The notes beneath the pieces were generated by a model. The model worked only from the letters and a program-made list of their open reading frames with translations. It was not told where the DNA came from and did not search any database. DNA of 64,000 nucleotides, taken from contig NC_135897.1 of assembly GCF_964194155.1 (NCBI RefSeq), positions 74,834,001 to 74,898,000 on the forward strand. The letters are read 5' to 3'. Origin of the DNA: Cetorhinus maximus. Taxonomy: Eukaryota. Below, piece after piece: positions 13,458 through 40,439 of this stretch (position 1 is its first letter; each line of letters opens with the position of its first letter). The position numbers and the translations under genes are program-made.

Positions 13458-13948
13458 AATTGAAAATAATTAAGGCTGATTTAAGACAGATTTTTGGTCT
13501 CTCAGGGAATCAAGAGATATGAGGAGAGGGTGGGAAAGTGGAATTGAAACTCTAGGTCAGCCATGATCATATTGAATGGTGGAGCAAGTTCGATGGGTCA
13601 TATGGTTTTCTCCCACTCCTATTCCTTATGTTCTTATAAATGCTTGTTCTTACTGACACTTGGGGGCTATGTAAGTTTTGGCTAAGGAGGTCTTGTGGCA
13701 CAATGGGTAGCACCCCTGATCTGAGCCAAAAGCTCTGAGTAAGGAAGATATGTTCATAACATGACCAAACAAGTTGAGTGGTAGTTGGTAAGAGTGGGAG
13801 AGATTCTTGGTTAGCCATTGTAATGGAAAGACATTGGAGCCTCTACCATCGCTGTCCATAGTTCCAGGTTACAACATGCATGTAAAAGTGTATGTATGTC
13901 AGTCGGTTGGATAACCAATGTGGGTGAGATTGGTGCCAACAGCACTGG

Positions 13949-15436
13949 CCTGAAGGTGCTGGGGATATGGTTCGAAGGGACTGGGGCATGCGTTAGAAAC
14001 TGGAAGGAGCGAGTATCTATGGTGCAAAGAAAACTGGGCATGTGGGAGCGACGCTCCCTCTCCATTGCGGGTAAGAACCTGGTCATCAGGTGTGAGGCAC
14101 TCTTGCTGTTGCTGTACGTCTGGCCCATTCCAGACTCCTGCGTGGTGGCGATCACCCGAGCCATCTTTCACTTTATCTGGAGGTCGAAAATGGATTGTGT
14201 CCGCAGGGATGCGATGTATAAGCCTCTAGATAAGTGGGGTGGGGGGGGGGGGAACTTTCCCAACATCGCCCTCATACTGATGGCTACCTTTGTGTGCAGC
14301 TGCATCAAGCTGTGCGTAGATCCTCAGTACGCAAACACCAAGCGTTACGACGTGCTGAGGTTCTACCTGTCCCCGGTGTTGCAAAGGATGGGTCTGGCCA
14401 CGCTGCCACGAAACGCTCCAAGTAGTTGGACCGTGCCATACCACCTGTCCCTCATGGAAAAATTTATGCAGAGAAACACCTTTGACCACAAGTCCATTAG
14501 GCAGTGGTCGGCACATAACATCTTAGAGGCCCTGCGGGAAAAGGAGAGGGTGGGTCCTGTGGGATGGTTCCCCGAGCAGACTGTCAAAGTCATTTGGCAG
14601 AATGCCTCTTCGCCAGAACTTTCCAACAAGCACCAAGATGTAGCTTGGCTGGTGGTGAGAAAGGCCCTCCCTGTCAGATCTTTCCAACACGCCAGGAGCC
14701 TCACCCCCTCTGCACATTGCCCTCGAGGTGGTTGTGGTGGGGACGAGACCGTTGTTCACCTCCTTGTGGATTATGCCTTTGCAAAGAAGGTCTGGAGAGA
14801 GATGCAGTGGTTTCTGTCGAGGTTCATCCCGAGCAGTTCTATGACACAGGACTCTGTGCTCTACGGGCTGTTCCCAGGGACACACACCGAGACAAACATC
14901 AACTACAGCTGGAGGATCATCAACTCGGTGAAAGACGCTCTTTGGTCTGCCTGAAACTTCTTGGTCTTCCAGCACAAAGAGTTGTCCCTGACCAAGTGTT
15001 GCAGACTGGCACATCCCAAGGTCCAGGACTACGTGCTGAGGGATGCACTAAAGCTTGGGGCAGCCGCCGCAAAGGCGCAATGGGGAAAGGTCGCTGTCTA
15101 AGACCTTTCTGTCATTATGCACTGAGGGGCTGGGAATTGTTGAGAGCCCCTCGGGCTGTACAGCTCACAATGAATGTATGCATTGAATACTAATTGTATT
15201 ATAATTGTATTGAAGCACCTCAGAGTGCAACATGATGTATGTTGATAACTCCAATACCACTGTCTGATTGTCTGTAATGACCATATTGAAATGATTGTAA
15301 TATTCATTGATTGTATTGATGCACCTCGTGATCCATGTGTAAAAGTTGAATCTGATTGTACTTTTTGGGATGGCGATTTTGAAATGTTTTGTAATGTTGT
15401 TCCAGATATTTTATGAATAAAGTACATTTTTTTAAA
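13949..15436 (+). mobile_element. 5'-truncated Tx1 (L1-clade) LINE: RT C-terminus, zf-RVT, 3' UTR, short A tail
   Basis: ORF from LKVLGIWF through CPRGGCGGDETVVHLL; one TGA at 14952-14954, then the frame continues to TAA at 15099-15101. AATAAA at ~15416. TSD AACAGCACTGG (13938-13948) / AATAGCACTGG (15437-15447). Confidence 0.9.
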
Positions 15437-15879
15437 AATAGCACTGGGTTTATTCCCTGTTCCGGCTTGGGACCTGCCTCCTTGCCCTGCCTGTGGTGGA
15501 GTTTGTGGTGCTATGGGTTGGACCTGCCTTCAGGCAGAAAACTCAAGAGAAGCTTTGGCTAAATTTCTAGATATGTATGAATTGGTAATTGGGTGCAAAC
15601 AACTTTTAGGTTTTAAAAACTTATGAATTGAAAGGAATAAACAAATAAAATGCTTCAATTCTGATGAGGGCCATCATTGTTCTTAAATGGAAACTCTCTC
15701 TCCACAGATGCTGCAATGACCTGCTGAGTGTTTCCAACATTTTCTGTTTTTGTTTCAGATTTAGACCACCTTTAGTATTTTGTTTTGTACTGTGCTGCAA
15801 CTGTTCATTAATGAGTGAGATTTTCTACTTCGTGATATTAGCTTCCCTATTTTTGGTCAGTGCCAGCACCATCCGCAAA

Positions 15880-16239
15880 CAAATTGGACAGTCCTACAAC
15901 CAACCCCATGGAACAAGCGCTTTTCGGTCGCCGTGCATTCACAGTGCGCAAGCGCATAGAGAGGGAGGCGGGGGGGGGGGGGCGTTCGCCAAGGACTCAC
16001 GATGCGCAAGCGCAGACGGAGGGGAATCCCGAGGATTCACGGTGCGCAAGCGCAGACTGAGGGGGGTTCCCGTGGATTCATGGTGCGCATGCGCAGTGTT
16101 AGTGTTCCCTCGGATTCACGGTGCGCAAGCGCAGTGTGGGTGTTTCACCGCGGATTCACGGTGCGCAAGCGCAGTGTGAAGGTATCCCCGCGGATTCACG
16201 GTGCGCAAGCGCAGTGTGAGGCTGGCTCTCGGCTCTGTC
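15880..16239 (+). promoter_or_regulatory. MRPL44 CpG-rich promoter/5' UTR with tandem NRF1-type sites
   Basis: TGCGCA(A/T)GCGCA at 15945, 16003, 16043, 16084, 16122, 16162, 16202; ATTGG at 15883-15887; GC-box-like GAGGCGGGG near 15965. Confidence 0.8.
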
Positions 16240-16412
16240 ATGTCGTCGGCGGTGCTGTTCCGAAATGTTTTCAATTCCTTCAGACAAAGTCTTTCTCTCA
16301 GCCGGACCATCCTGTTCACACAAACCAGGGAGAAGAAAAGATGGATGAAATCTTACATGTTGCTAATGGAAAGAAAGAAAAAACTTGAAGGGCCTCCACC
16401 GCCTCAACCTCG
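16240..16412 (+). CDS. MRPL44: 39S mitoribosomal protein L44, exon 1 (basic presequence-like N-terminus ...KKLEGPPPPQPR)
   Basis: ATG at 16240, GT donor at 16413, phase 2 matches exon 2. Confidence 0.88.
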
Positions 16413-16599
16413 GTGTGTATGAGTGTGCGTGGGGACCAGGCCGCAGATCCTTATTTACCCAAGTGAATGGATGCTCTGAGTGAAAAATATATAAATTTGC
16501 CTTTGTTGTTTTGCACTTAATATACCAGACTATTTATGTTGTGCGTTACAGCGTGTTGCATTTTTATACGACCTTTAACAGATGTTTCTCAATACCTCA

Positions 16600-17470
16600 C
16601 AGAGGTGGTCAAGCCAATGAAGGAGATTTTTGGAGGGGTGATAACATTTGGTTATAGGAGGTGGATTTGAAGAGGTCATTAAAGTTGGAGAGGCAGAGGG
16701 TTAGTGAGGGAATTCCAAACTGAGGGACCGAGACAACCTCAGGAACGTTTGGCAGTGGCAAGGAGCAGAGTTGTCTACAGGAGGCTGGCGTGAGGAACGG
16801 AGACATCAGCGCACTTGAGCAGGTTACGGAAATAGTTGGTGGTTGGTAATGTGCGGGTAATGGCTTTAAATTGGAGATGTTGGAACCTTGTGAGCAAGGA
16901 CGGGAATGATGGATGAGCAGAACTTAGGGCAGCAGGTTATGGGCACAGGAGTTTGGATGAGCTGAAGTTTAGGGAGGATGGAATGTTGGTCAGGAGAGCT
17001 TTGCAATAGCTGGTTGACCACAGCATGAATGATCATTACTGAGGAAGGTCAGACGTGGGTGATGTTACAGAGGGGAAAGTAAGGGCCAGAAGCTCAGTTT
17101 GAATCAGGCGCACATTGCAAGCTTTTTGATTTGAGCTGAGACAGGAAGGGGGACTGTGTCATTGCCAAAGGTACAAAACATGGAGGCTGAGAGTGATGTC
17201 TGTGGTCTTGCCAGCTTTTAGCCAGTGAAAACTGTGACTTGCCTAAGACTGGATGGCAGACAAACAGTGAGAAGGTGCAGAGGCAGTAAAAGCGTCGAGA
17301 GAGGTGGTAAAGAGGTAGAGCTGGGTGCTGCTGTATGTATCTCGTGTCTGTGAATGTTGTTACCAAGGGATAGTTTGTATCTGAACGGGCCAATCCTGGA
17401 TTCTTTGGGAACTCCCAAAGTGATGGCATGGGAATAGAAGCGGAAGCGATTTCTAGAGATGCTTTGGTTA
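16600..17470 (-). mobile_element. Degenerate L2 fragment in MRPL44 intron 1
   Basis: Reverse complement resembles the L2 3' region (e.g. GAGGTGGATTTGAAGAGG, GGAATTCCAAAC); heavily decayed. Confidence 0.5.
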
Positions 17471-18088: not shown

Positions 18089-18557
18089 ATCACAGCAGCC
18101 AAACTGGAACTATCATGCTGAAGTAGAGGCCTTTGGTCAACGTCTTCATGAGAATTTCAACCTGGACCTTCTCAAAACAGCGTTCATCAATCCCTGTTAT
18201 ATTACGTTTGAGGAAGCACGCCGCCGGGAACTTAGACTGGAAAGAGAGGAGATCACATTAAATCTCAAAGACAATCAGCAGTTATTTGAGAAAGGCTCAC
18301 TGTTTTCAGATACTTACCTCCAAAACTGTTTTAGTAATGCCTATCCAAACTTACCTGCCGACGGTGTTAAGGCATTTACTACTCACATCACAAGGTCAGA
18401 GAATGTGTGCCATGTTGCCAGAAACTTAGCTGTGGAAGACTTGACACTAAGTGCAGAGTTCCCAGTGCCACAGGAGGTTTTACAAAAGACATTCTTTGCT
18501 GTTGTTGGAGCTTTGCTTGAGAGCAGTGGACCTGAAAGAGCCAGCTTATTTATCCGG
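18089..18557 (+). CDS. MRPL44: MRPL44 exon 2 (RNase III-like domain)
   Basis: AG/GT bounded, 469 nt; [34 protein letters not shown]...[21 protein letters not shown]...[12 protein letters not shown]. Confidence 0.97.
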
Positions 18558-24061: not shown

Positions 24062-24785
24062 AGGAATCTTTTTATCGTGTCCATGGACAGTCTATACATG
24101 GCCCAGCCAGAACTGGACACATTTTTGCGCCTTGTTGTTGAATTCGGCAAGATCTGCAACAGTGCAGGGTTCCTCTAGCGATGGGCATTGCAGGAGGTGT
24201 TGCATAGTCTGTTACTCAGTTCCACATTCATTTGTCGGGCTGGTTGTATATCCCCATTTGCTTAGTGACACCTTTGAACGACCTACACCAGCCCTAAGTC
24301 TGTTAAGGCACTTCCAGGTTGCCCAGTTGCAATTAGCTCCTGGAGGAAGGCTTTCATCCGGTAGAATTTCCATCGTTGGGTGTTGTACGAGACTGGTGAG
24401 CCAGTCTTTCCACAAGGCGATGCGGGCTTCAGATGGAGTTGATTGTAATGGAACAACACCGTTCATGAAGCTCTTCCTTGACTTCAGGTGGCTGGGTGTA
24501 GGTGTATGACCATGTAAAGTTTGCCTCTCATCTGATGTTTGACGGAGTCGCTCTTTCTTGCTGACTACCGTTCTCATATCAGGGGGAGCGATACGCAGGA
24601 TATATAGGCTGTTGGTGTTTGTTGGTTTTAAACAACCTGTGATAAGTCGGCAGCTTGCATTCAGAACGGCATTCATCTTCTTAGCATGAGTAGATCTTTC
24701 CCATGCAGGGCAGGCGTATTCAGCAGTGGAATAGCAAAGAGCAAGTGCACTGATTCGCAATGTTTTCAAGCTTGCTCCCCATAGG
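24062..24785 (-). mobile_element. Vingi/Ingi-like LINE 3' fragment
   Basis: LRISALALCYSTAEYACPAWERSTHAKK...LNRLRAGVGR...KWG...ECGTE*QTMQHLLQCP, ending GGACACGATAAAAAG. Clade assignment is from memory of motif style. Confidence 0.65.
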
Positions 24786-25019
24786 GATAATGGGTGGATA
24801 CTCTAATTGGCAGGGTGTCTCACAGAGTACTGGTGCCAAGGTCGTTTAAATTTTTTTCATGTGCACAGTCTGGTTATCTGCACAGTGCCTTTAAGTTTTC
24901 TTGCACAGCTAAGGATGCTTGTATCTTTTAGGCACAACTTCTGAGTGGCCTCTCCAGTACCCACCTTACATGGGTGCAGCTTAACGGGAACATTGATGGA
25001 GGCCTCAACTCGTCACCCA

Positions 25020-29449: not shown

Positions 29450-29786
29450 TTACACTGGTCTACTGCGCCTCCTCTTGGATGTTCCGCAGATAAAGCCGAA
29501 AACTCCAACGATTATTTGCAACGCACTGACCATCACTTCCAGTATCCCAACCAAAAAGAGTCCGCTGAATGTGATCCTGTGAATCGTCTTTTGAAAGCCT
29601 ACATCTGTCTCTAAACTGGGAGCTGTTGATGCGGCTTTCACGCTGGAAACGGTTAACTTATTGGCAGGAACTGTAGAAAAGTTGGTACCTGGTAGATCAG
29701 TTGGTACAATGTGAAAGCCAGTTTGATTAATTCCACACTTGTCTTCCACAAACCACTTCAAATCAATCTTGATATTTGAAAGAGAC
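29450..29786 (-). CDS. TM4SF20: TM4SF20-like (L6 family), exon 4
   Basis: Acceptor TTTTTTTCTAG; SLSNIKIDLKWFVEDKC...IHRITFSGLFLVGILEVMVSALQIIVGVFGFICGTSKRRRSRPV*, matching the recalled TM4SF20 C-terminus LLLVGILEVLFGLSQIVIGFLGCLCGVSKRRSQIV. Confidence 0.88.
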
Positions 29787-30396
29787 CTAGAAAAAAAGTT
29801 TTTATTAATGCAGTACACAATTTTTGTGTATCAATTAATATTTTTCTCTAGCTTTTTGTAATAGGGTGCACAATGTGGGCAGATCTCTGCCAATGTCAGT
29901 AGCTGGTGCACAGATTGCCAGAGACAGATTTCTTGTGATTTTTCTTTCATGCCTTAATGGGGAGCACCTGGATATATAGGTGCAGGGATTAAATTAAACC
30001 GGATCAACTACAACACAACTAGATCGTTCTAAAGATTTTTTTTTTTAAAAACACGAATAAATCAAGGCGGGCCACCCGGAACACCACTTTATTCAAAAGG
30101 AATTGTTGCTGTTAATTTAAGATTTGAAGAGCTCGCTGACGCAAAGGTAACTTTGTCCCTTCATCTTTTGTTGTTGGAGGTCTGCTATCAGGCTGCCAGT
30201 TAATAGGTGATTTCCCAGGTCCCCTCAGGTATCTTCGCTATACTGTACGTTTCTCTCCTCCTTCTGGTCAGTCGCATGGGTCTCTTAGAACTGCCTGCAA
30301 GTGCTAGAAAACCTCCTTTGTTTCCTGAGAACCGGAACTGGACTCTTACGCCCCATTAGATCAAATTATTCATTGGTTTAAATTATACGAAAACTA

Positions 30397-30424
30397 AATA
30401 ATAATAATAATAATAAATAATAAC
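30397..30424. repeat. (TAA)n microsatellite
   Basis: AAATAATAATAATAATAATAAATAATAA in TM4SF20 intron 3. Confidence 0.85.
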
Positions 30425-30594
30425 CAGTGAGCCAAATGTTCAATCATTATACGGTGTATAGAAAACTTAGCGAAATCGCTGTCTAAGCAGCATCCGCGTT
30501 CTGTTGCAGTGTGATGTACCACTGTGCTGTGCAGGTGTCCTTGCACCAGTATTTGGCTTATCGGTTGTTATAATATATACAAAAAAATACTTGC

Positions 30595-30746
30595 TTTATG
30601 TCTTCTATTGAGAAGCTGCAGTTTTCCAGACTGTGACTTTCTGTATCGCAGACCAGTGGCCCCTTAATCAGGGAATGCAGTGAGACCAATGCACAGTACA
30701 CGGCTCCAAGAACACTGATCAGACTGAGAAGTGCAGACAGCAGGAG
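30595..30746 (-). CDS. TM4SF20: TM4SF20-like exon 3 (TM3 plus start of the large loop); donor appears to be GC
   Basis: CTGCAG acceptor; LLLSALLSLISVLGAVYCALVSLHSLIKGPLVCDTESHSLENCSFSIEDI. The phase-2 end required by exon 4 falls at AA|GCAAGT. Confidence 0.85.
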
Positions 30747-30898
30747 CTGCAGGTCAGAACACAGAATGGTGAGAATAAGATTTTTATGCAATGATCACAT
30801 GCAGGGGTTTTTTTTTTGTTATCAAGGTTGGAAATAAAGTTCAATTAAGTTATTATTTCAATATGGACTGGGTGCTTTGAGTTGATTTTTGCACCTAC

Positions 30899-30964
30899 CC
30901 CTGTTCTGGTATTGCAGTTTTGTCCCTTCCGTGCTGCCAGAGACATGGATACTGTTGGAATGAC
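30899..30964 (-). CDS. TM4SF20: TM4SF20-like exon 2 (66 nt)
   Basis: CAG/GTAGGT bounded; VIPTVSMSLAARKGQNCNTRTG versus recalled human AIPATTMSLTARKRACCNNRTG. Confidence 0.92.
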
Positions 30965-31416
30965 CTGTATCAAACGGGAGCCGAAACAAGTATTCAGAAA
31001 TAACTACTCTGGAGGTAGGAATCTGTAGAACAGACTATCTTAAAAATATTCAACAGGAATAAACAGATGTGCGATTGAACTGAAACTGCACAGAAATGCT
31101 CTGGCATTGTGGGCAAACGTAAGTTTTAAAAACCCCAAATGAGTGTGGAGATGATTGAATTTTCCGTTTTTCATTTGTCTACAATTTTAGCCACATAATA
31201 ACACGGGAGAAGTATTCCAATGTAATTATGCTGAAGATTAAATTTAAAACAGTCTCTGGCTAAATGTTGCTTTCGAAGATAGCTAAGGGCACAAAATACT
31301 AAATATGTCCTTCTGCTTGTATCTTCCAGTGAATCAAACGAAACAGAATCAGAGTTCTTACAACATTGTTGCCTCATGCCTTAAGAACCTCGTGCGGATG
31401 GACCCACAGGAAGACA

Positions 31417-31604
31417 AATAAAAACAGAATATGCTGGAAATACTCAACAGGTCAGGCAGCATCAGCAGTGGAGAGAGAAACGGTTAATTCTCTTGAAAGG
31501 TCATCGGTCTCTGTTTCTCTCCCCGAAGTTGCCTGACCTGCTGAGTATTTCCAGCGTTTTCTGTTTTTATTTCAGATTTCCAGCCTCCACAGTGTTTTGC
31601 TTTT
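31417..31604. mobile_element. Penelope-terminus fold-back element in TM4SF20 intron 1
   Basis: Inverted arms AATAAAAACAGAA..GCTGGAAATACTCA..CAGGTCAGGCA / TGCCTGACCTGCTGAGTATTTCCAGC..CTGTTTTTATT. TSD CCACAGGAAGACA (31404-31416) / CCACGGGAAGACA (31605-31617). Confidence 0.8.
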
Positions 31605-31733
31605 CCACGGGAAGACACGTTAGTTTTCCAGTCTTCTGGGCTGGTTTCTAATGACCATTTTCATAAGACTGCAACATTTTTATTGTTACAACATGAAGCT
31701 CTATACCTGAAATATCAACAAGTACTCTTTCTT

Positions 31734-31930
31734 AAATAAAACAGAAAATGCTCTAAGTACTCAATAGGTTGGGCAGCATTTGCGGAGGAAGAAATGAACG
31801 TTTCAGACCGATGACCTTTCGTCAGAACAGTTCCTATTGTTCCTTTACAGATGCTGCCTGATCGCTAAGTGTTTCCGAGATTTCTGTTTTTTGTTTCCGA
31901 GTTCCAGCATTAGCAGTAATTTATTGTTTT
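31734..31930. mobile_element. Second, older Penelope-terminus fold-back element
   Basis: Inverted arms of the same family; minus-strand CTGACGA-AAGGTC-ATC-GGTCT-GAAACGTT at ~31797-31830. Confidence 0.7.
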
Positions 31931-32320
31931 ACAAAGTTAAACAAATGGAAATACACCCGACTAAAACCATCTTACAGTATCCCTGTTTAGGTGACATGGA
32001 ATTTCTATCTGTCGACGGCAATTATATAGTTATCACCTGCTTTGAACTGAATACTAGAATACCAGGCTTGATATTTTCTTTGGAAGTTATCTTAGTCCAG
32101 AATAAAATTATTATCCAAGACTGGTCAGCCATTGCACTATGCTGCTCACTGTCCAGTCGCAAAATTCTTGTTTTTTTAAATATGCCATGGTCCCAGTCAA
32201 GCACCTACACTGGCTCTCGTACTAGAACATTCCTAACTCAATTACTCTGTTGAAGAAGCAAACTCTAACTAAAATCCTACAAGAGGATTCCCTAGCTGGC
32301 TCTGCGGTGCAATATCTTAC

Positions 32321-32491
32321 CAAGATCCCACCTCCAAAAATACCAGGTAGCCACCATTCATAACACGATATGGAGTTCCGAAATAACCGACCATCGCGGC
32401 AGTTCACGATTAGAGGTATCATGTTCAGGACAATAGCCAAAATGGTCAAAGCCAGGAGACAAGAACCATTAAACAATGTGAAGCACGGCAT
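32321..32491 (-). CDS. TM4SF20: TM4SF20-like exon 1 coding part
   Basis: MPCFTLFNGSCLLALTILAIVLNMIPLIV...NSISCYEWWLPGIFGGGIL then GTAAGA donor. VLNxIPLIV and ISCxEWWxPGI fit TM4SF20, as does the position between MFF and AGFG1. CDS totals 726 nt (241 aa). Confidence 0.9.
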
Positions 32492-32784
32492 TCCCGATCT
32501 CTCGCAGGTACAGCAGTAAAAGGCAGCTGGAACTCAAAGACTAATAAATTACAACCGCTTCAGGGCGATTGACTTTTAAAATGTAGTTAAATATTAGTTC
32601 AAAGTTTAAGCCTATTTTCGGGGACTTTTTTTAAGTAAAGTTGTGATGCAGGGGCCGTAAAATTCCGGCCTCTAGTTCTGACTCACTAATTTGAATCATT
32701 AACATCTTTAGGCTGTTTAAGCAGAGCTCGCGGATAAGGCCAGCCATTTAGACTAGAGGCATTCCATGTAACATAAGAATATGG

Positions 32785-36893: not shown

Positions 36894-38075
36894 TTAAGAT
36901 CTAAAGTTGTTGAATTCAATATTCAGCCCAGAGGGCTGTAAAGTGCCTAGTCGGAAGATGAGGTGCTGTTCCTCCAGTTTGCGTTGGGCTTCACTGGAAC
37001 AATGCAGCAAGCCAAGGACAGACATGTTGGCAAGAGAACAGGGTGGAGTGTTAAAATGGCAAGCGACAGGGAGGTTTGGGTCTTTCTTGCGGACAGACCG
37101 CAGGTGTTCCGCAAAACGGTCGCCCAGTTTGCGTTTGGTCTCTCCAATGTAGAGGAGACCGCATTGGGAGCAACGAATGCAGTAGACTAAGTTAGGGGAA
37201 ATGCAAGTGAAATGCTGCTTCACTTGAAAGGAGTGTTTGGGCCCTTGGACGGTGAGGAGAGAGGAAGTGAAGGGGCAGGTGTTGCATCTTCTGCGTGGGC
37301 ATGGGGAGGTGCCATAAGTGGGGGTTGAGGAGTAGGGGGTGATGGAGGAGTGGACCAGGGTGTCCCGGAGGGAACGATCCCTACGGAATGCCGTCAAGGG
37401 GGGTGAAGGGAAGATGTGTTTGGTGGTGGCATCATGCTGGAGTTGGCGGAAATGGCGGAGGATGATCCTTTGAATGCGGAGGCTGGTGGGGTGATAAGTG
37501 AGGACAAGGGGGACCCTATCATGTTTCTGGGAAGGAGGAGAAGGCGTGAGGGAGGATGCGCGGGATATGGGCCGGACACGGTTGAGGGCCCTGTCAACGA
37601 CCGTGGATGGAAAACCTCGGTTAAGGAAGAAGGAGGACATGTCAGAGGAGCTGTTTTTGAAGGTAGCGTCATCAGAACAGATGCGGCGGAGGCGAAGGAA
37701 CTGAGAGAATGGGATGGAGTCTTTACAGGAAGCGGGGTGTGTGGAGCTGTAGTCGAGGTAGCTGTGGGAGTCGGTAGGCTTGTAATGGATATTGGTGGAC
37801 AGTCTATCATCAGAAATTGAGACAGAGAGGTCAAGGAAGGGAAGAGAAGTGTCAGAGATGGACCATGTGAAGATGATGGAGGGGTGGAGATTGGAAGCAA
37901 AATTAATAAATTTTTCCAGGTCCCGACGAGAGCATGAAGCAGCACCGAAGTAATCATCGATGTACCGGAGAAAGAGTTGTGGGAGGGGGCCGGAGTAGGA
38001 CTGGAACAAGGAATGTTCCACATACCCCATAAAGAGACAGGCATAGCTGGGGCCCATGCGGGTACCCATAGCCAC
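36894..38075 (-). CDS. Penelope-like RT/GIY-YIG polyprotein, C-terminal part (frame open upstream toward ~38190, N-terminus truncated)
   Basis: 393-aa ORF; upstream in-frame PSTTTLLRLAELVLTLNNFSFNSSHFLQIKGV. Confidence 0.85.
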   Translation of the reverse strand: MAMGTRMGPSYACLFMGYVEHSLFQSYSGPLPQLFLRYIDDYFGAASCSRRDLEKFINFASNLHPSIIFTWSISDTSLPFLDLSVSISDDRLSTNIHYKPTDSHSYLDYSSTHPASCKDSIPFSQFLRLRRICSDDATFKNSSSDMSSFFLNRGFPSTVVDRALNRVRPISRASSLTPSPPSQKHDRVPLVLTYHPTSLRIQRIILRHFRQLQHDATTKHIFPSPPLTAFRRDRSLRDTLVHSSITPYSSTPTYGTSPCPRRRCNTCPFTSSLLTVQGPKHSFQVKQHFTCISPNLVYCIRCSQCGLLYIGETKRKLGDRFAEHLRSVRKKDPNLPVACHFNTPPCSLANMSVLGLLHCSSEAQRKLEEQHLIFRLGTLQPSGLNIEFNNFRS

Positions 38076-40439
38076 ACCTTTTATTTGGAGGAAGTGAGAG
38101 GAGTTAAAGGAGAAATTGTTCAGTGTGAGAACAAGTTCAGCCAGACGGAGGAGAGTAGTGGTGGATGGGGATTGTTGGGGCCTCTGTTCAATTCTATTGC
38201 TCTGCTCAGGGTGTCAGGTTTTTGTGCAGACAACATAAAAAACAGAGCTCCCCATTCTTTACAGTCAAAGCTGAATCTAACTGTGTAAAAATGCTGAAGT
38301 TCCAGCAAGTGGCAAGGAACACCCTGATTGTCATGCAGGTATATTCTAGCTGTCAATGTGTACTGCTAGTACATAATACTGCATTAAGAAAGCTGAAGGA
38401 TTTGTTTTTGTAGCAGATCCTATGTTTCATTTTTTAATTTAGTTTAAATTTTTTATTTGTTAATTATAAGATGGATGAAATGTGCAATATGCTTATTGAT
38501 GTCTCTCTAAATTGTTGGTTTCCTTTAGCCTCCAAGGGTCTTTTGTGTCTCCTAACTAACTCAGTAGGCTGTTGCTGGTTCTTGTCAGCCCTGAACTTCT
38601 TTTGGCTTATTTTCTTAGCTGACTTGTTTAGGTGTCAGAATTATCACAGAGACTATGATGAAAGTATAATAACGTTCATGATATTTTTCTGGTTTATTGT
38701 GAAGTAGGTTAATGGGGGCAAGTATAGTTGGGTCTGTCTGTTTGACTTAATTACATTTGGAGCCAAGTAGACTGCAAGCTTGAATTCATCAAAAGAAGCT
38801 AGGTGCTTGATGTGCTAATGAGTAAACATGGATGCTGGCTTAACATATAAAGTGCGAAGGGAATTTGCATTTTTAGATAAATAAAGGGATTTGGATTTCA
38901 AAGGGATTTTAGTCTGTTTACAACTAACCAGAAAACCTAGGCTAAGCAGTGTGTTTATTTTCCTCAAAGGTTACTGACCATATTAACAACATGAAAGTTT
39001 TTATATTATGAGGAAGAGACAGTTTGAAAGACACATGGAACAATAGAATTTACATATTAAAAAGAGAGAAACATATATAAAGGAGAATGAAAGGCTATGT
39101 GGAAGAAGGCCATGTAAGAGCAAATAGGAGTGTGCAAAATAGCTTAATGAAGCCTCTAGCCATTTATGCATAAGTCTGCTACACAACAAAATTGAAATTG
39201 GAGAAAAGCCATTTGGAATTCCACTGTCAAGTGGGTATTGTGTTAACTTGCTAGCTGTTTTAAATCTAAAATCTGTTTTGGACTGTTGCCTTAAAGGGGG
39301 TGTAACTGGGGGTCAGGTTAATTAGGAATTTCAGGAGTTATTACAGTAGTAAGTAATTGTAGTATTATGTATGGACTTGAAATCTTTTATTTTGTTAATA
39401 AATATTTTAATTTAATTTTTAAAATCTCTAAATGTCTTGGTGGACTTATTACTTCTGATTTCAGTGCACATATCTTCTCGTAATAAATACAAATTGCAAA
39501 ACTGTTGTGATAGCGCGACCAAGTTTCCTTTCTGGATTTGGTCTGCCTGGCACACATCATTTACTACATCATAATAAAGACAAATGTGCCATTCTAGGGT
39601 AAATATATTTCAGCCTGAAGGGTATAATGCCCCTGAATTTTGTCTGATGTTACAGCTCATCATTTTGCCACTACTTAAATTTTTTTGTGTAGTCTAATAG
39701 GGATGATTATATGTACAGAATTTTAGTTTAAGCAGGTAATTTTATCATCAGGGCCCCCTGCTAATAAAGTATTAACAAAATTATATCATTAATTCAAACT
39801 CTTGTTTGATTTTTTGGGCTTTTTTTGGTTTTTTTAATGGTACAAAGATTACAAAGATGAGGGAGGCCATTTGGCTCATGTAGCTCACCTTTTTATAGAA
39901 ACACGCAGTATTTTGTTCATAGTGCCTCTTGAATTATTTCAGTGTATTTGTCTCTGCTACCCTTCTTAGAAAACCATTCCAGTGTTAATATTTGCTGTGT
40001 ATTTGAATCCTGTGAATAATGGCAGGTAAATTGCTGGCACCAAATAATAACAAGCCATATTGCCAATGCTGGGTGAATAATGACTGAGTTAATTACCATC
40101 TAGTCATGTTGCACATGTCCATTATCCAAATCTCAGTCAACAAATAAGGGAAACTAATACATTAGCATTCTGAGAAGTCTGTGTGAATGTTAGATTATTA
40201 GGACCCAGCTAACTGTGACCATACAGCCAAATTATACTGTGCTGTAGGAGTCCATTCAGATAATGGACCTATACTGGCTTTCTAAAATAGCTATTTACTT
40301 ATTCCTAATCGCTACCATTTATCCATAGTGTTTAAAGTATTCCCCTTTCTAACATTCACTTTTAAAAGTTATTAAGTATGCTGTATCCACCATCTTCCTG
40401 CTCGGGTATTCCACCTACTACCAGTCATATGTGTTCTTG

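What the first reader, a model, noticed from the sequence alone, without database searches (positions are those of the whole stretch)
15935..16220. Seven tandem NRF1-type palindromes immediately upstream of the MRPL44 start codon
Seen: a ~40-bp minisatellite with core GGATTCACGG-TGCGCAAGCGCA-G. The 12-mer starts at 15945, 16003, 16043, 16084 (perfect TGCGCATGCGCA), 16122, 16162 and 16202 (spacings 58, 40, 41, 38, 40, 40). Cores are conserved while spacers diverge, and the last copy ends 26 nt before the ATG. Known: YGCGCAnGCGCR is the nuclear respiratory factor 1 site typical of nuclear-encoded mitochondrial genes. Inferred: the promoter was built by tandem amplification of a TF site and could act as a copy-number dosage control.
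Basis: partly seen in the sequence, partly recalled or inferred. Interest (0 to 1): 0.7.

Follow-up and report, generated by a model that had tools for sequence, protein, structure and literature searches.

The report
NRF1-site minisatellite at MRPL44 promoter
The start of a mitochondrial ribosomal protein gene carries seven head-to-tail copies of a 40-base piece, each with a match to the binding site of the activator NRF1; it likely works as a redundant housekeeping promoter rather than a copy-number dial, and the same genome holds dozens of unrelated repeats of this kind.

Summary
In detail: seven NRF1-consensus 12-mers at the stated places form a ~40-bp minisatellite ending 26 nt before the ATG of MRPL44 (exon 2 matches human mL44; spliced RNA contigs in a relative). 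The unit is unique to this locus, and the genome encodes NRF1 with its three base-reading residues conserved. The dosage-dial idea gains no support. A relative ~3% diverged has the same seven slots, yet three cores carry half-site substitutions and two slots are replaced; one spliced RNA contig there runs through five of the seven slots, so part of the array is likely 5' leader. At least 44 loci in this genome have three such motifs in a row, about as many as the motif's abundance predicts against a control word. Best reading: ordinary tandem duplication inside a small CpG island made a redundant cluster of NRF1 sites that turns over slowly. Binding, start site and any effect of unit number are untested. 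Known kind (human TERRA 29-bp NRF1 repeats, ABO NF-Y minisatellite); this scan noted similar promoter arrays before on other DNA.

The parts
15935..16231 (+). Seven-unit ~40-bp minisatellite (10-bp head, 12-bp NRF1-type core, variable G-rich then C-rich spacer); holds 31 CpGs
15935..15992 (+). Unit 1 (58 bp, atypical); core 15945-15956; G run with a GC-box-like word at 15965-15972. In the relative, 15910-15970 is replaced by 23 letters holding one AT-centred site
   Evidence: table 5c
15993..16032 (+). Unit 2; core 16003-16014; G>A at 16010 in the relative
16033..16073 (+). Unit 3; core 16043-16054; 5' end of the longest spliced RNA contig of the relative lies at 16036
16074..16111 (+). Unit 4; the only perfect palindrome (16084-16095); carries two upstream ATGs (16080, 16089); replaced in the relative by a copy that aligns to unit 6
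16112..16151 (+). Unit 5; core 16122-16133; 1- or 2-base G insertion at 16137 in the relative (differs between its runs)
16152..16191 (+). Unit 6; core 16162-16173; G>A at 16169 listed in 3 of 5 runs of the relative that cover it
16192..16231 (+). Unit 7; core 16202-16213; C>G at 16210 in 5 of 5 runs of the relative that cover it
15883..15887 (-). CCAAT box (reverse), inside the short block 15872-15909 that still aligns in the relative
15751..16450 (.). CpG-island-like stretch, the densest of four in the window (up to 32 CpG per 300 bp; observed/expected about 1.0-1.2 over the array against 0.29 for the window)
16240..16412 (+). MRPL44 coding exon 1; donor GT at 16413
   Evidence: (3 of 3 RNA contigs leave the window at 16412 and go on with the first letters of exon 2)
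18089..18557 (+). MRPL44 exon 2 (mL44 endonuclease-like domain)
15695..15790 (.). Very high-copy interspersed repeat fragment (SINE-like, inferred) bounding the promoter upstream
   Evidence: summed contig depth above 1,000,000 in 3 of 4 runs at 15705-15745
13824..15440 (+). 3' part of a LINE-type retroelement (zf-RVT domain; AATAAA and A run near 15416-15440) upstream of the promoter
   Evidence: PF13966, E 5e-7

Best explanation
This is a locus-specific ~40-bp minisatellite that fills most of the small CpG island at the start of MRPL44 and likely acts as a redundant cluster of NRF1 sites in a housekeeping promoter, not as a tuned copy-number dial. Shown: seven units, each matching GCGCNTGCGC on the minus strand; a CCAAT box and a GC-box-like word just upstream, no TATA word; interspersed repeats closing the region within about 450 bp of the ATG; slot replacement and core substitutions between two species with slot number unchanged. 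Inferred: a GC-rich piece holding one NRF1 site was duplicated by slippage or unequal exchange; NRF1 dimers would bind several units with moderate affinity, help keep the island unmethylated and allow dispersed initiation in or upstream of the array; because any few intact sites would suffice, selection acts on the cluster weakly, single cores can decay, and unit-to-unit conversion keeps the 22-bp head-plus-core block alike while the G/C-run spacers drift faster.
For: Unit unique to the locus. AA-centred 12-mer behaves like a real motif in this genome: 301 strand-matches against 24 (12 palindromic sites) for a TA-centred control and 61 for the variant seen in the relative. NRF1 gene present, 53 of 56 residues of the tested DNA-binding exon identical to human, including R206, N242, R244 (residues named in PMC10810270). 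CpG observed/expected about 1 over the array. Relative: seven slots in 3 of 4 DNA contigs that span all of them, six slots within the fourth contig's length; slot 4 replaced by a 41-letter copy aligning to unit 6; aligned array parts differ at 13 of 209 letters against 14 of 461 in flanks (P=0.058). Three core substitutions, all in one half-site; an equivalent single change costs about 4-fold in affinity in vitro (PMC10810270 Table 2), so sites are weakened, not erased. Human promoters tend to carry copies of the same motif (PMC3820735 passages), and insertions at germline NRF1 sites are often tandem duplications (PMC8559717 passages).
Against: Within this species all 7 cores are intact while spacers differ at a quarter of letters, which fits real per-site selection at least in this lineage; slot number has stayed at seven across about 3% divergence, which could mean constraint on number. 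The cross-species counts are small (3 of 60) and cannot exclude moderate constraint. Five differences inside the array were not itemised by the tool, so the state of cores 3, 4 and 5 in the relative is uncertain. No binding, methylation or start-site data. The Kd of the AA-centred site is not in Tables 1-2 of PMC10810270; its supplements were not read.
Confidence: 0.6

Rival explanations
1. Mutational by-product: one NRF1 site (or the CCAAT and GC boxes) does the work and the extra units are neutral products of repeat instability in a GC-rich, germline-open promoter.
For: Triples of the NRF1 10-mer are 5.5 times as many as triples of a control 10-mer (144 against 26 rows), the same as the ratio of single sites (33,059 against 5,859, 5.6 times). 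Cores changed at the flank rate between species. The conserved block extends 10 bp beyond the motif, and that head-plus-half-site word is not a genome-wide motif (2 matches elsewhere against 9 for its reversed control).
Against: 1 of 84 core letters departs from consensus in this species, at the degenerate centre and towards a better site, although cores hold two mutable CpGs each. By loci the ratio is at least 44 to 7 with 44 rows unlisted, and many single GCGCATGCGC matches may lie in dispersed repeats, which would hide a true excess.
Confidence: 0.2
2. Copy-number dosage control: the number of units sets NRF1 occupancy and so MRPL44 output, and is tuned by selection or varies between individuals.
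For: All 7 cores intact here; the array fills most of the island (31 of 44 CpGs between 15790 and 16412); motif-bearing minisatellites with promoter or enhancer activity exist (TERRA 29-bp repeats, PMC6600276 passages; ABO 43-bp repeats, PMC7187371 passages).
Against: No joint showing another unit number in 1 run of this species or 4 DNA runs of the relative (contigs drop rare alleles, so this is weak). Three cores weakened in the relative. One spliced contig covers five of seven slots. For ABO the effect of repeat number is reported as controversial.
Confidence: 0.12
3. The conserved element is not (only) an NRF1 site: either a metal-response element array (TGCRCNC on the minus strand, MTF-1; consensus recalled) or a structured 5' leader with upstream ATGs that limits translation.
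For: MRE core present in 6 of 7 units and untouched by the three listed core substitutions in the relative. 16033-16242 folds at -95 kcal/mol, z=-2.3. ATGs at 16002, 16080 and 16089 open one out-of-frame ORF that overlaps the main ATG and stops at 16388.
Against: The MRE core arises whenever G precedes TGCGCA; three substitutions, two of them identical, are too few to define a spared half. The fold is modest (7 of 200 shuffles do as well) and expected of palindrome-rich repeats; no Rfam match at E<=1. The unit-4 ATGs are missing from the relative's slot 4.
Confidence: 0.08

Closest known systems
Human subtelomeric TERRA promoters, 29-bp repeats (PMC6600276, passages seen)
   Same: CpG-island promoter built from tandem units, each with predicted NRF1 sites; NRF1 binds and activates there.
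   Different: TERRA repeats are a multi-locus subtelomeric family, often methylated, with sites two bases off consensus; this array is single-locus, at a protein-coding housekeeping gene, with consensus sites and no binding data.
Human ABO CBF/NF-Y minisatellite, 43-bp units (PMC7187371, passages seen)
   Same: About 40-bp unit that multiplies the site of a general promoter factor.
   Different: ABO repeat lies 3.7-3.9 kb upstream and is polymorphic (one or four units); here the array abuts the ATG and no number variation was seen.
Homotypic clusters of NRF1 sites in vertebrate proximal promoters (PMC3820735 and PMC8559717, passages seen)
   Same: Same motif repeated near a housekeeping start; tandem duplication proposed as the source.
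   Different: The human insertions studied are 5-20 bp singletons; here a 40-bp unit reached seven copies and is shared by two species. Motif-specific excess of duplication was not seen in this genome after normalising.

Membership tests
NRF1 binding site | GCGCNTGCGC consensus, two GCGC half-sites 2 bp apart | tested here: met
   7 of 7 cores; consensus as given in PMC10810270 section 15
NRF1 binding site | Cognate factor with conserved base-reading residues in the same genome | tested here: met
   PF10491 exons on C12; R206, N242, R244 conserved
NRF1 binding site | Unmethylated CpGs | tested here: inconclusive
   CpG observed/expected about 1.0-1.2 is indirect only
NRF1 binding site | Position near the transcription start | tested here: inconclusive
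   RNA contigs of the relative begin at 16036, 16247 and 16254; contigs cannot show a start
NRF1 binding site | Occupancy and activation by NRF1 | not testable with these tools
   needs EMSA, CUT&RUN or reporters
Minisatellite | Head-to-tail units of tens of bases at one locus | tested here: met
   period 40, 5.8 copies, 82%; unit unique in the genome
Regulatory VNTR (ABO or TERRA type) | Unit number varies between alleles | tested here: inconclusive
   no variation in 1 run of this species and 4 DNA runs of a relative; contigs drop rare alleles
Regulatory VNTR (ABO or TERRA type) | Expression depends on the repeats | not testable with these tools
   needs reporters or expression-genotype data
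Dispersed satellite or transposon-derived repeat | Unit found at many loci | tested here: not met
   23-mer: 4 of 4 genome matches here; 14-mer: 2 matches elsewhere against 9 for the control

The most novel reading that the evidence does not exclude
In this lineage housekeeping promoters are repeatedly rebuilt by minisatellite amplification of general activator sites, and at MRPL44 the count of intact NRF1 cores (seven here, about four in the relative) is a species-level setting of mitochondrial ribosome output, changed by core decay and unit conversion rather than by unit number.
Probability: 0.12. Interest if true: 0.6.

Novelty: new member of a known kind. Interest (0 to 1): 0.25.

Why it matters
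As it stands it is a clean but ordinary example of a promoter minisatellite that multiplies a general activator site. Its use is as a natural test bed: two species share seven slots but differ in intact cores, so reporters and NRF1 occupancy could show whether extra sites in a homotypic cluster add output, buffer mutation or do nothing. If intact-core count did set MRPL44 level, it would be a simple route for tuning mitochondrial translation between species.

Tried and rejected
Dispersed satellite: rejected. Unique genome feature: first suggested by the strict 12-mer pair search (12 other loci), overturned by the 10-mer triple search (44 loci in the first 100 of 144 rows, counted by hand). The built-in reversed-pattern controls were set aside because they change CpG count or overlap GC-flanked NRF1 words; matched controls were run instead. 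The second triple control gave 10 loci in the first 100 of 125 rows, one shared with an NRF1 array; its single-site count was not measured. Asking whether the other arrays sit at gene starts led almost nowhere: the 9 longest frames of each of 16 loci (144 frames) gave 2 Pfam hits, TMEM185 in L019 and a DDE transposase in L042. Structured RNA family: no Rfam match. Whether the 16169 change is polymorphic in the relative could not be told: its listing follows contig strand in 5 of 5 runs, which looks like masking where one contig covers a place twice. NF-kB-like words in spacers 2 and 3 were not pursued. Literature searches for MRPL44 with NRF1 and promoter, NRF1 with VNTR, minisatellite or tandem repeat and shark promoter minisatellites listed no paper on this locus; only listings were seen for those hits, and subscription papers are not covered.

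Full report
1. Observation. TRF calls a 40-bp array of 5.8 copies at 82% from 15993 to 16221; unit 1 is a 58-bp outlier. Each unit is a 10-bp head, the 12-bp core and a spacer that is G-rich then C-rich. Departures from the majority letter: cores 1 of 72, heads 3 of 60, spacers 20 of 80; core against spacer P=1e-5, head against spacer P=0.002, core against head P=0.33. The conserved block is therefore head plus core, wider than the NRF1 motif.

2. Gene and setting. Exon 2 (18089-18557) matches PF22935 and human mL44. In a related species (organism B), 3 of 3 RNA contigs leave the window at 16412 and continue with the first letters of exon 2, which ties exon 1 to MRPL44 and shows the contigs are spliced. 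The array holds 31 of the 44 CpGs between 15790 and 16412 and is the densest CpG stretch of the window. A reverse CCAAT box (15883) and a GC-box-like word (15965) lie upstream and no TATA word was found (patterns recalled). A very high-copy repeat at 15695-15790 and a LINE 3' end with a zf-RVT domain close the region, so the promoter has little else to work with. The genome is 3.99 Gb; earlier notes of this scan call it a shark genome (unchecked).

3. Is it an NRF1 site? Liu et al. (PMC10810270; outline, passages and sections 15 and 18 read, supplements not) give the consensus GCGCNTGCGC; all seven cores match it on the minus strand. The AA centre keeps one of the two TpG steps read by R206, so affinity is likely a little below the AT-centred optimum (0.31 uM; CG centre 1.09 uM); AA is not in their Tables 1-2. 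In this genome the AA-centred 12-mer occurs 301 times, the AG-centred 724, a TA-centred control at 12 sites (24 strand-matches) and the variant seen in the relative 61 times. NRF1 is encoded on C12 and the tested exon is 53 of 56 identical to the human structure, with R206, N242 and R244 kept. Binding is likely but not shown.

4. Is it unique? The unit is: 4 of 4 matches of the 23-mer lie here, and head plus half-site is not a genome-wide word. The architecture is not. Three GCGCANGCGC words 18-48 bp apart give 144 rows, 44 separate loci in the first 100 listed (hand count). Of 11 such loci fetched, 9 are tandem repeats by TRF, five with six or more sites, each with its own unit. Control words give 7 loci (26 rows) and 10 loci in the first 100 of 125 rows. 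The row ratio to the first control, 5.5, equals the single-site ratio, 5.6, so no motif-specific amplification is seen; the test is rough because singles may include dispersed repeats and 44 rows were unlisted. Whether those arrays are at gene starts was mostly not established (2 Pfam hits in 144 frames). One cluster of five sites precedes a ubiquilin gene, so NRF1 clusters are not a mark of mitochondrial genes.

5. Evolution. Eight of 24 listed runs were laid. The run from this species (possibly the source sample, so not independent) matches 15733-16177 and 16190-16700 without differences and shows no joint in the array. The relative differs at 14 of 461 letters in exon 1 and intron. Its DNA contigs read, by joints and lengths, as seven slots (X5, X9, X11; X13 is long enough for six). 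Slot 1 is 23 other letters with an AT-centred site; slot 4 is a 41-letter copy aligning to unit 6, whereas unit 4 here differs from unit 6 at many spacer letters, which points to conversion or unequal exchange. Cores 2, 6 and 7 carry substitutions at positions 8, 8 and 9, all in the half-site that already lacks its T. The G>A change equals by symmetry a variant that binds about 4-fold weaker; the C>G change was only modelled as disruptive in that paper. Cores: 3 of 60 aligned letters against 14 of 461 in flanks, P=0.43; whole aligned array 13 of 209, P=0.058. Five array differences were counted but not itemised by the tool, so cores 3-5 are uncertain. Against this, the intact state of all seven cores in this species argues for some constraint or recent homogenisation.

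6. Transcription. RNA contigs from three studies of the relative start at 16036, 16247 and 16254. The last two start inside the coding exon and are 5'-incomplete. The first is spliced and covers slots 3-7, with no intron contig in that run; antisense promoter RNA joined in an unstranded graph is not excluded. It is a hint, from 1 of 3 runs, that part of the array is 5' leader. In this species such long leaders would carry out-of-frame ATGs (16002, 16080, 16089). The leader folds only modestly better than shuffles (z=-2.3) and matches no Rfam family.

7. Mechanism. Most likely (0.6): local duplication of a GC-rich piece with one NRF1 site built a redundant cluster that now forms the body of a CCAAT/GC-box/NRF1 housekeeping promoter; the cluster as a whole would matter, single cores and exact number would not. 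Kaiser et al. (PMC8559717; abstract and 12 passages) report that insertions at germline NRF1 sites are often tandem duplications of the motif, and Benner et al.-type promoter analysis (PMC3820735; passages; author name recalled) shows such motifs tend to co-occur with copies of themselves. Rivals: neutral by-product (0.2), copy-number dial (0.12), other factor or translational leader (0.08).

8. Known kinds and novelty. It works like the TERRA 29-bp NRF1 repeats (PMC6600276, passages) and resembles the ABO 43-bp NF-Y minisatellite (PMC7187371, passages; lead from note e1-9806141). It is a minisatellite with consensus NRF1 sites; it is not shown to be a VNTR. Searches listed nothing on this locus. 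This scan has noted similar motif-bearing promoter arrays in this genome and others (unchecked AI notes) and nothing look-alike to this sequence. Verdict: real, new member of a known kind, interest 0.25.

Noticed in passing
G000 C22:43936113 and C24:23.3-37.8 Mb (8 loci): A family of related ~44-bp tandem units pairing an NRF1 word with a GCCATCTT/AAGATGG word (YY1-like, recalled); probably promoters of a clustered gene family.
   Followed up: no
L019:1500-1672: Five NRF1 sites, partly tandem (29-32-bp period), 92 bp before the ATG of a ubiquilin gene, with a TMEM185 exon on the other strand upstream: likely a bidirectional promoter.
   Followed up: partly
L021:1326-2108: A 50-bp, 15-copy diverged array combining GGGCGGGG (GC box) with NRF1-like words.
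   Followed up: no
L026:1472-1909 and L049:1475-1788: Young, near-perfect NRF1-word minisatellites (43 bp x 10.2, 98%; 27 bp x 11.6, 99%); better candidates for number polymorphism than the MRPL44 array.
   Followed up: no
window 16002-16388: Three in-array ATGs share one out-of-frame ORF that overlaps the MRPL44 start codon; two come from unit 4 and are absent from the relative's slot 4.
   Followed up: partly
window upstream of 15872: The relative's contig leaves the window here with 29 unrelated letters that look like a tRNA-derived repeat (recalled resemblance), so the two species share only about 370 bp of contiguous promoter.
   Followed up: no
window 16240-16412: 4 of 6 exon-1 differences to the relative change a residue, three of them in the first nine codons, as expected of a loosely constrained import presequence (presequence inferred).
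   Followed up: partly
window 29450-32533, minus strand: Exons of an L6-membrane (TM4SF) family gene downstream, facing MRPL44 (PF05805).
   Followed up: no
window 24212-24802 (-) and 36894-38213 (-): Long frames that read like retroelement ORFs; not scanned.
   Followed up: no
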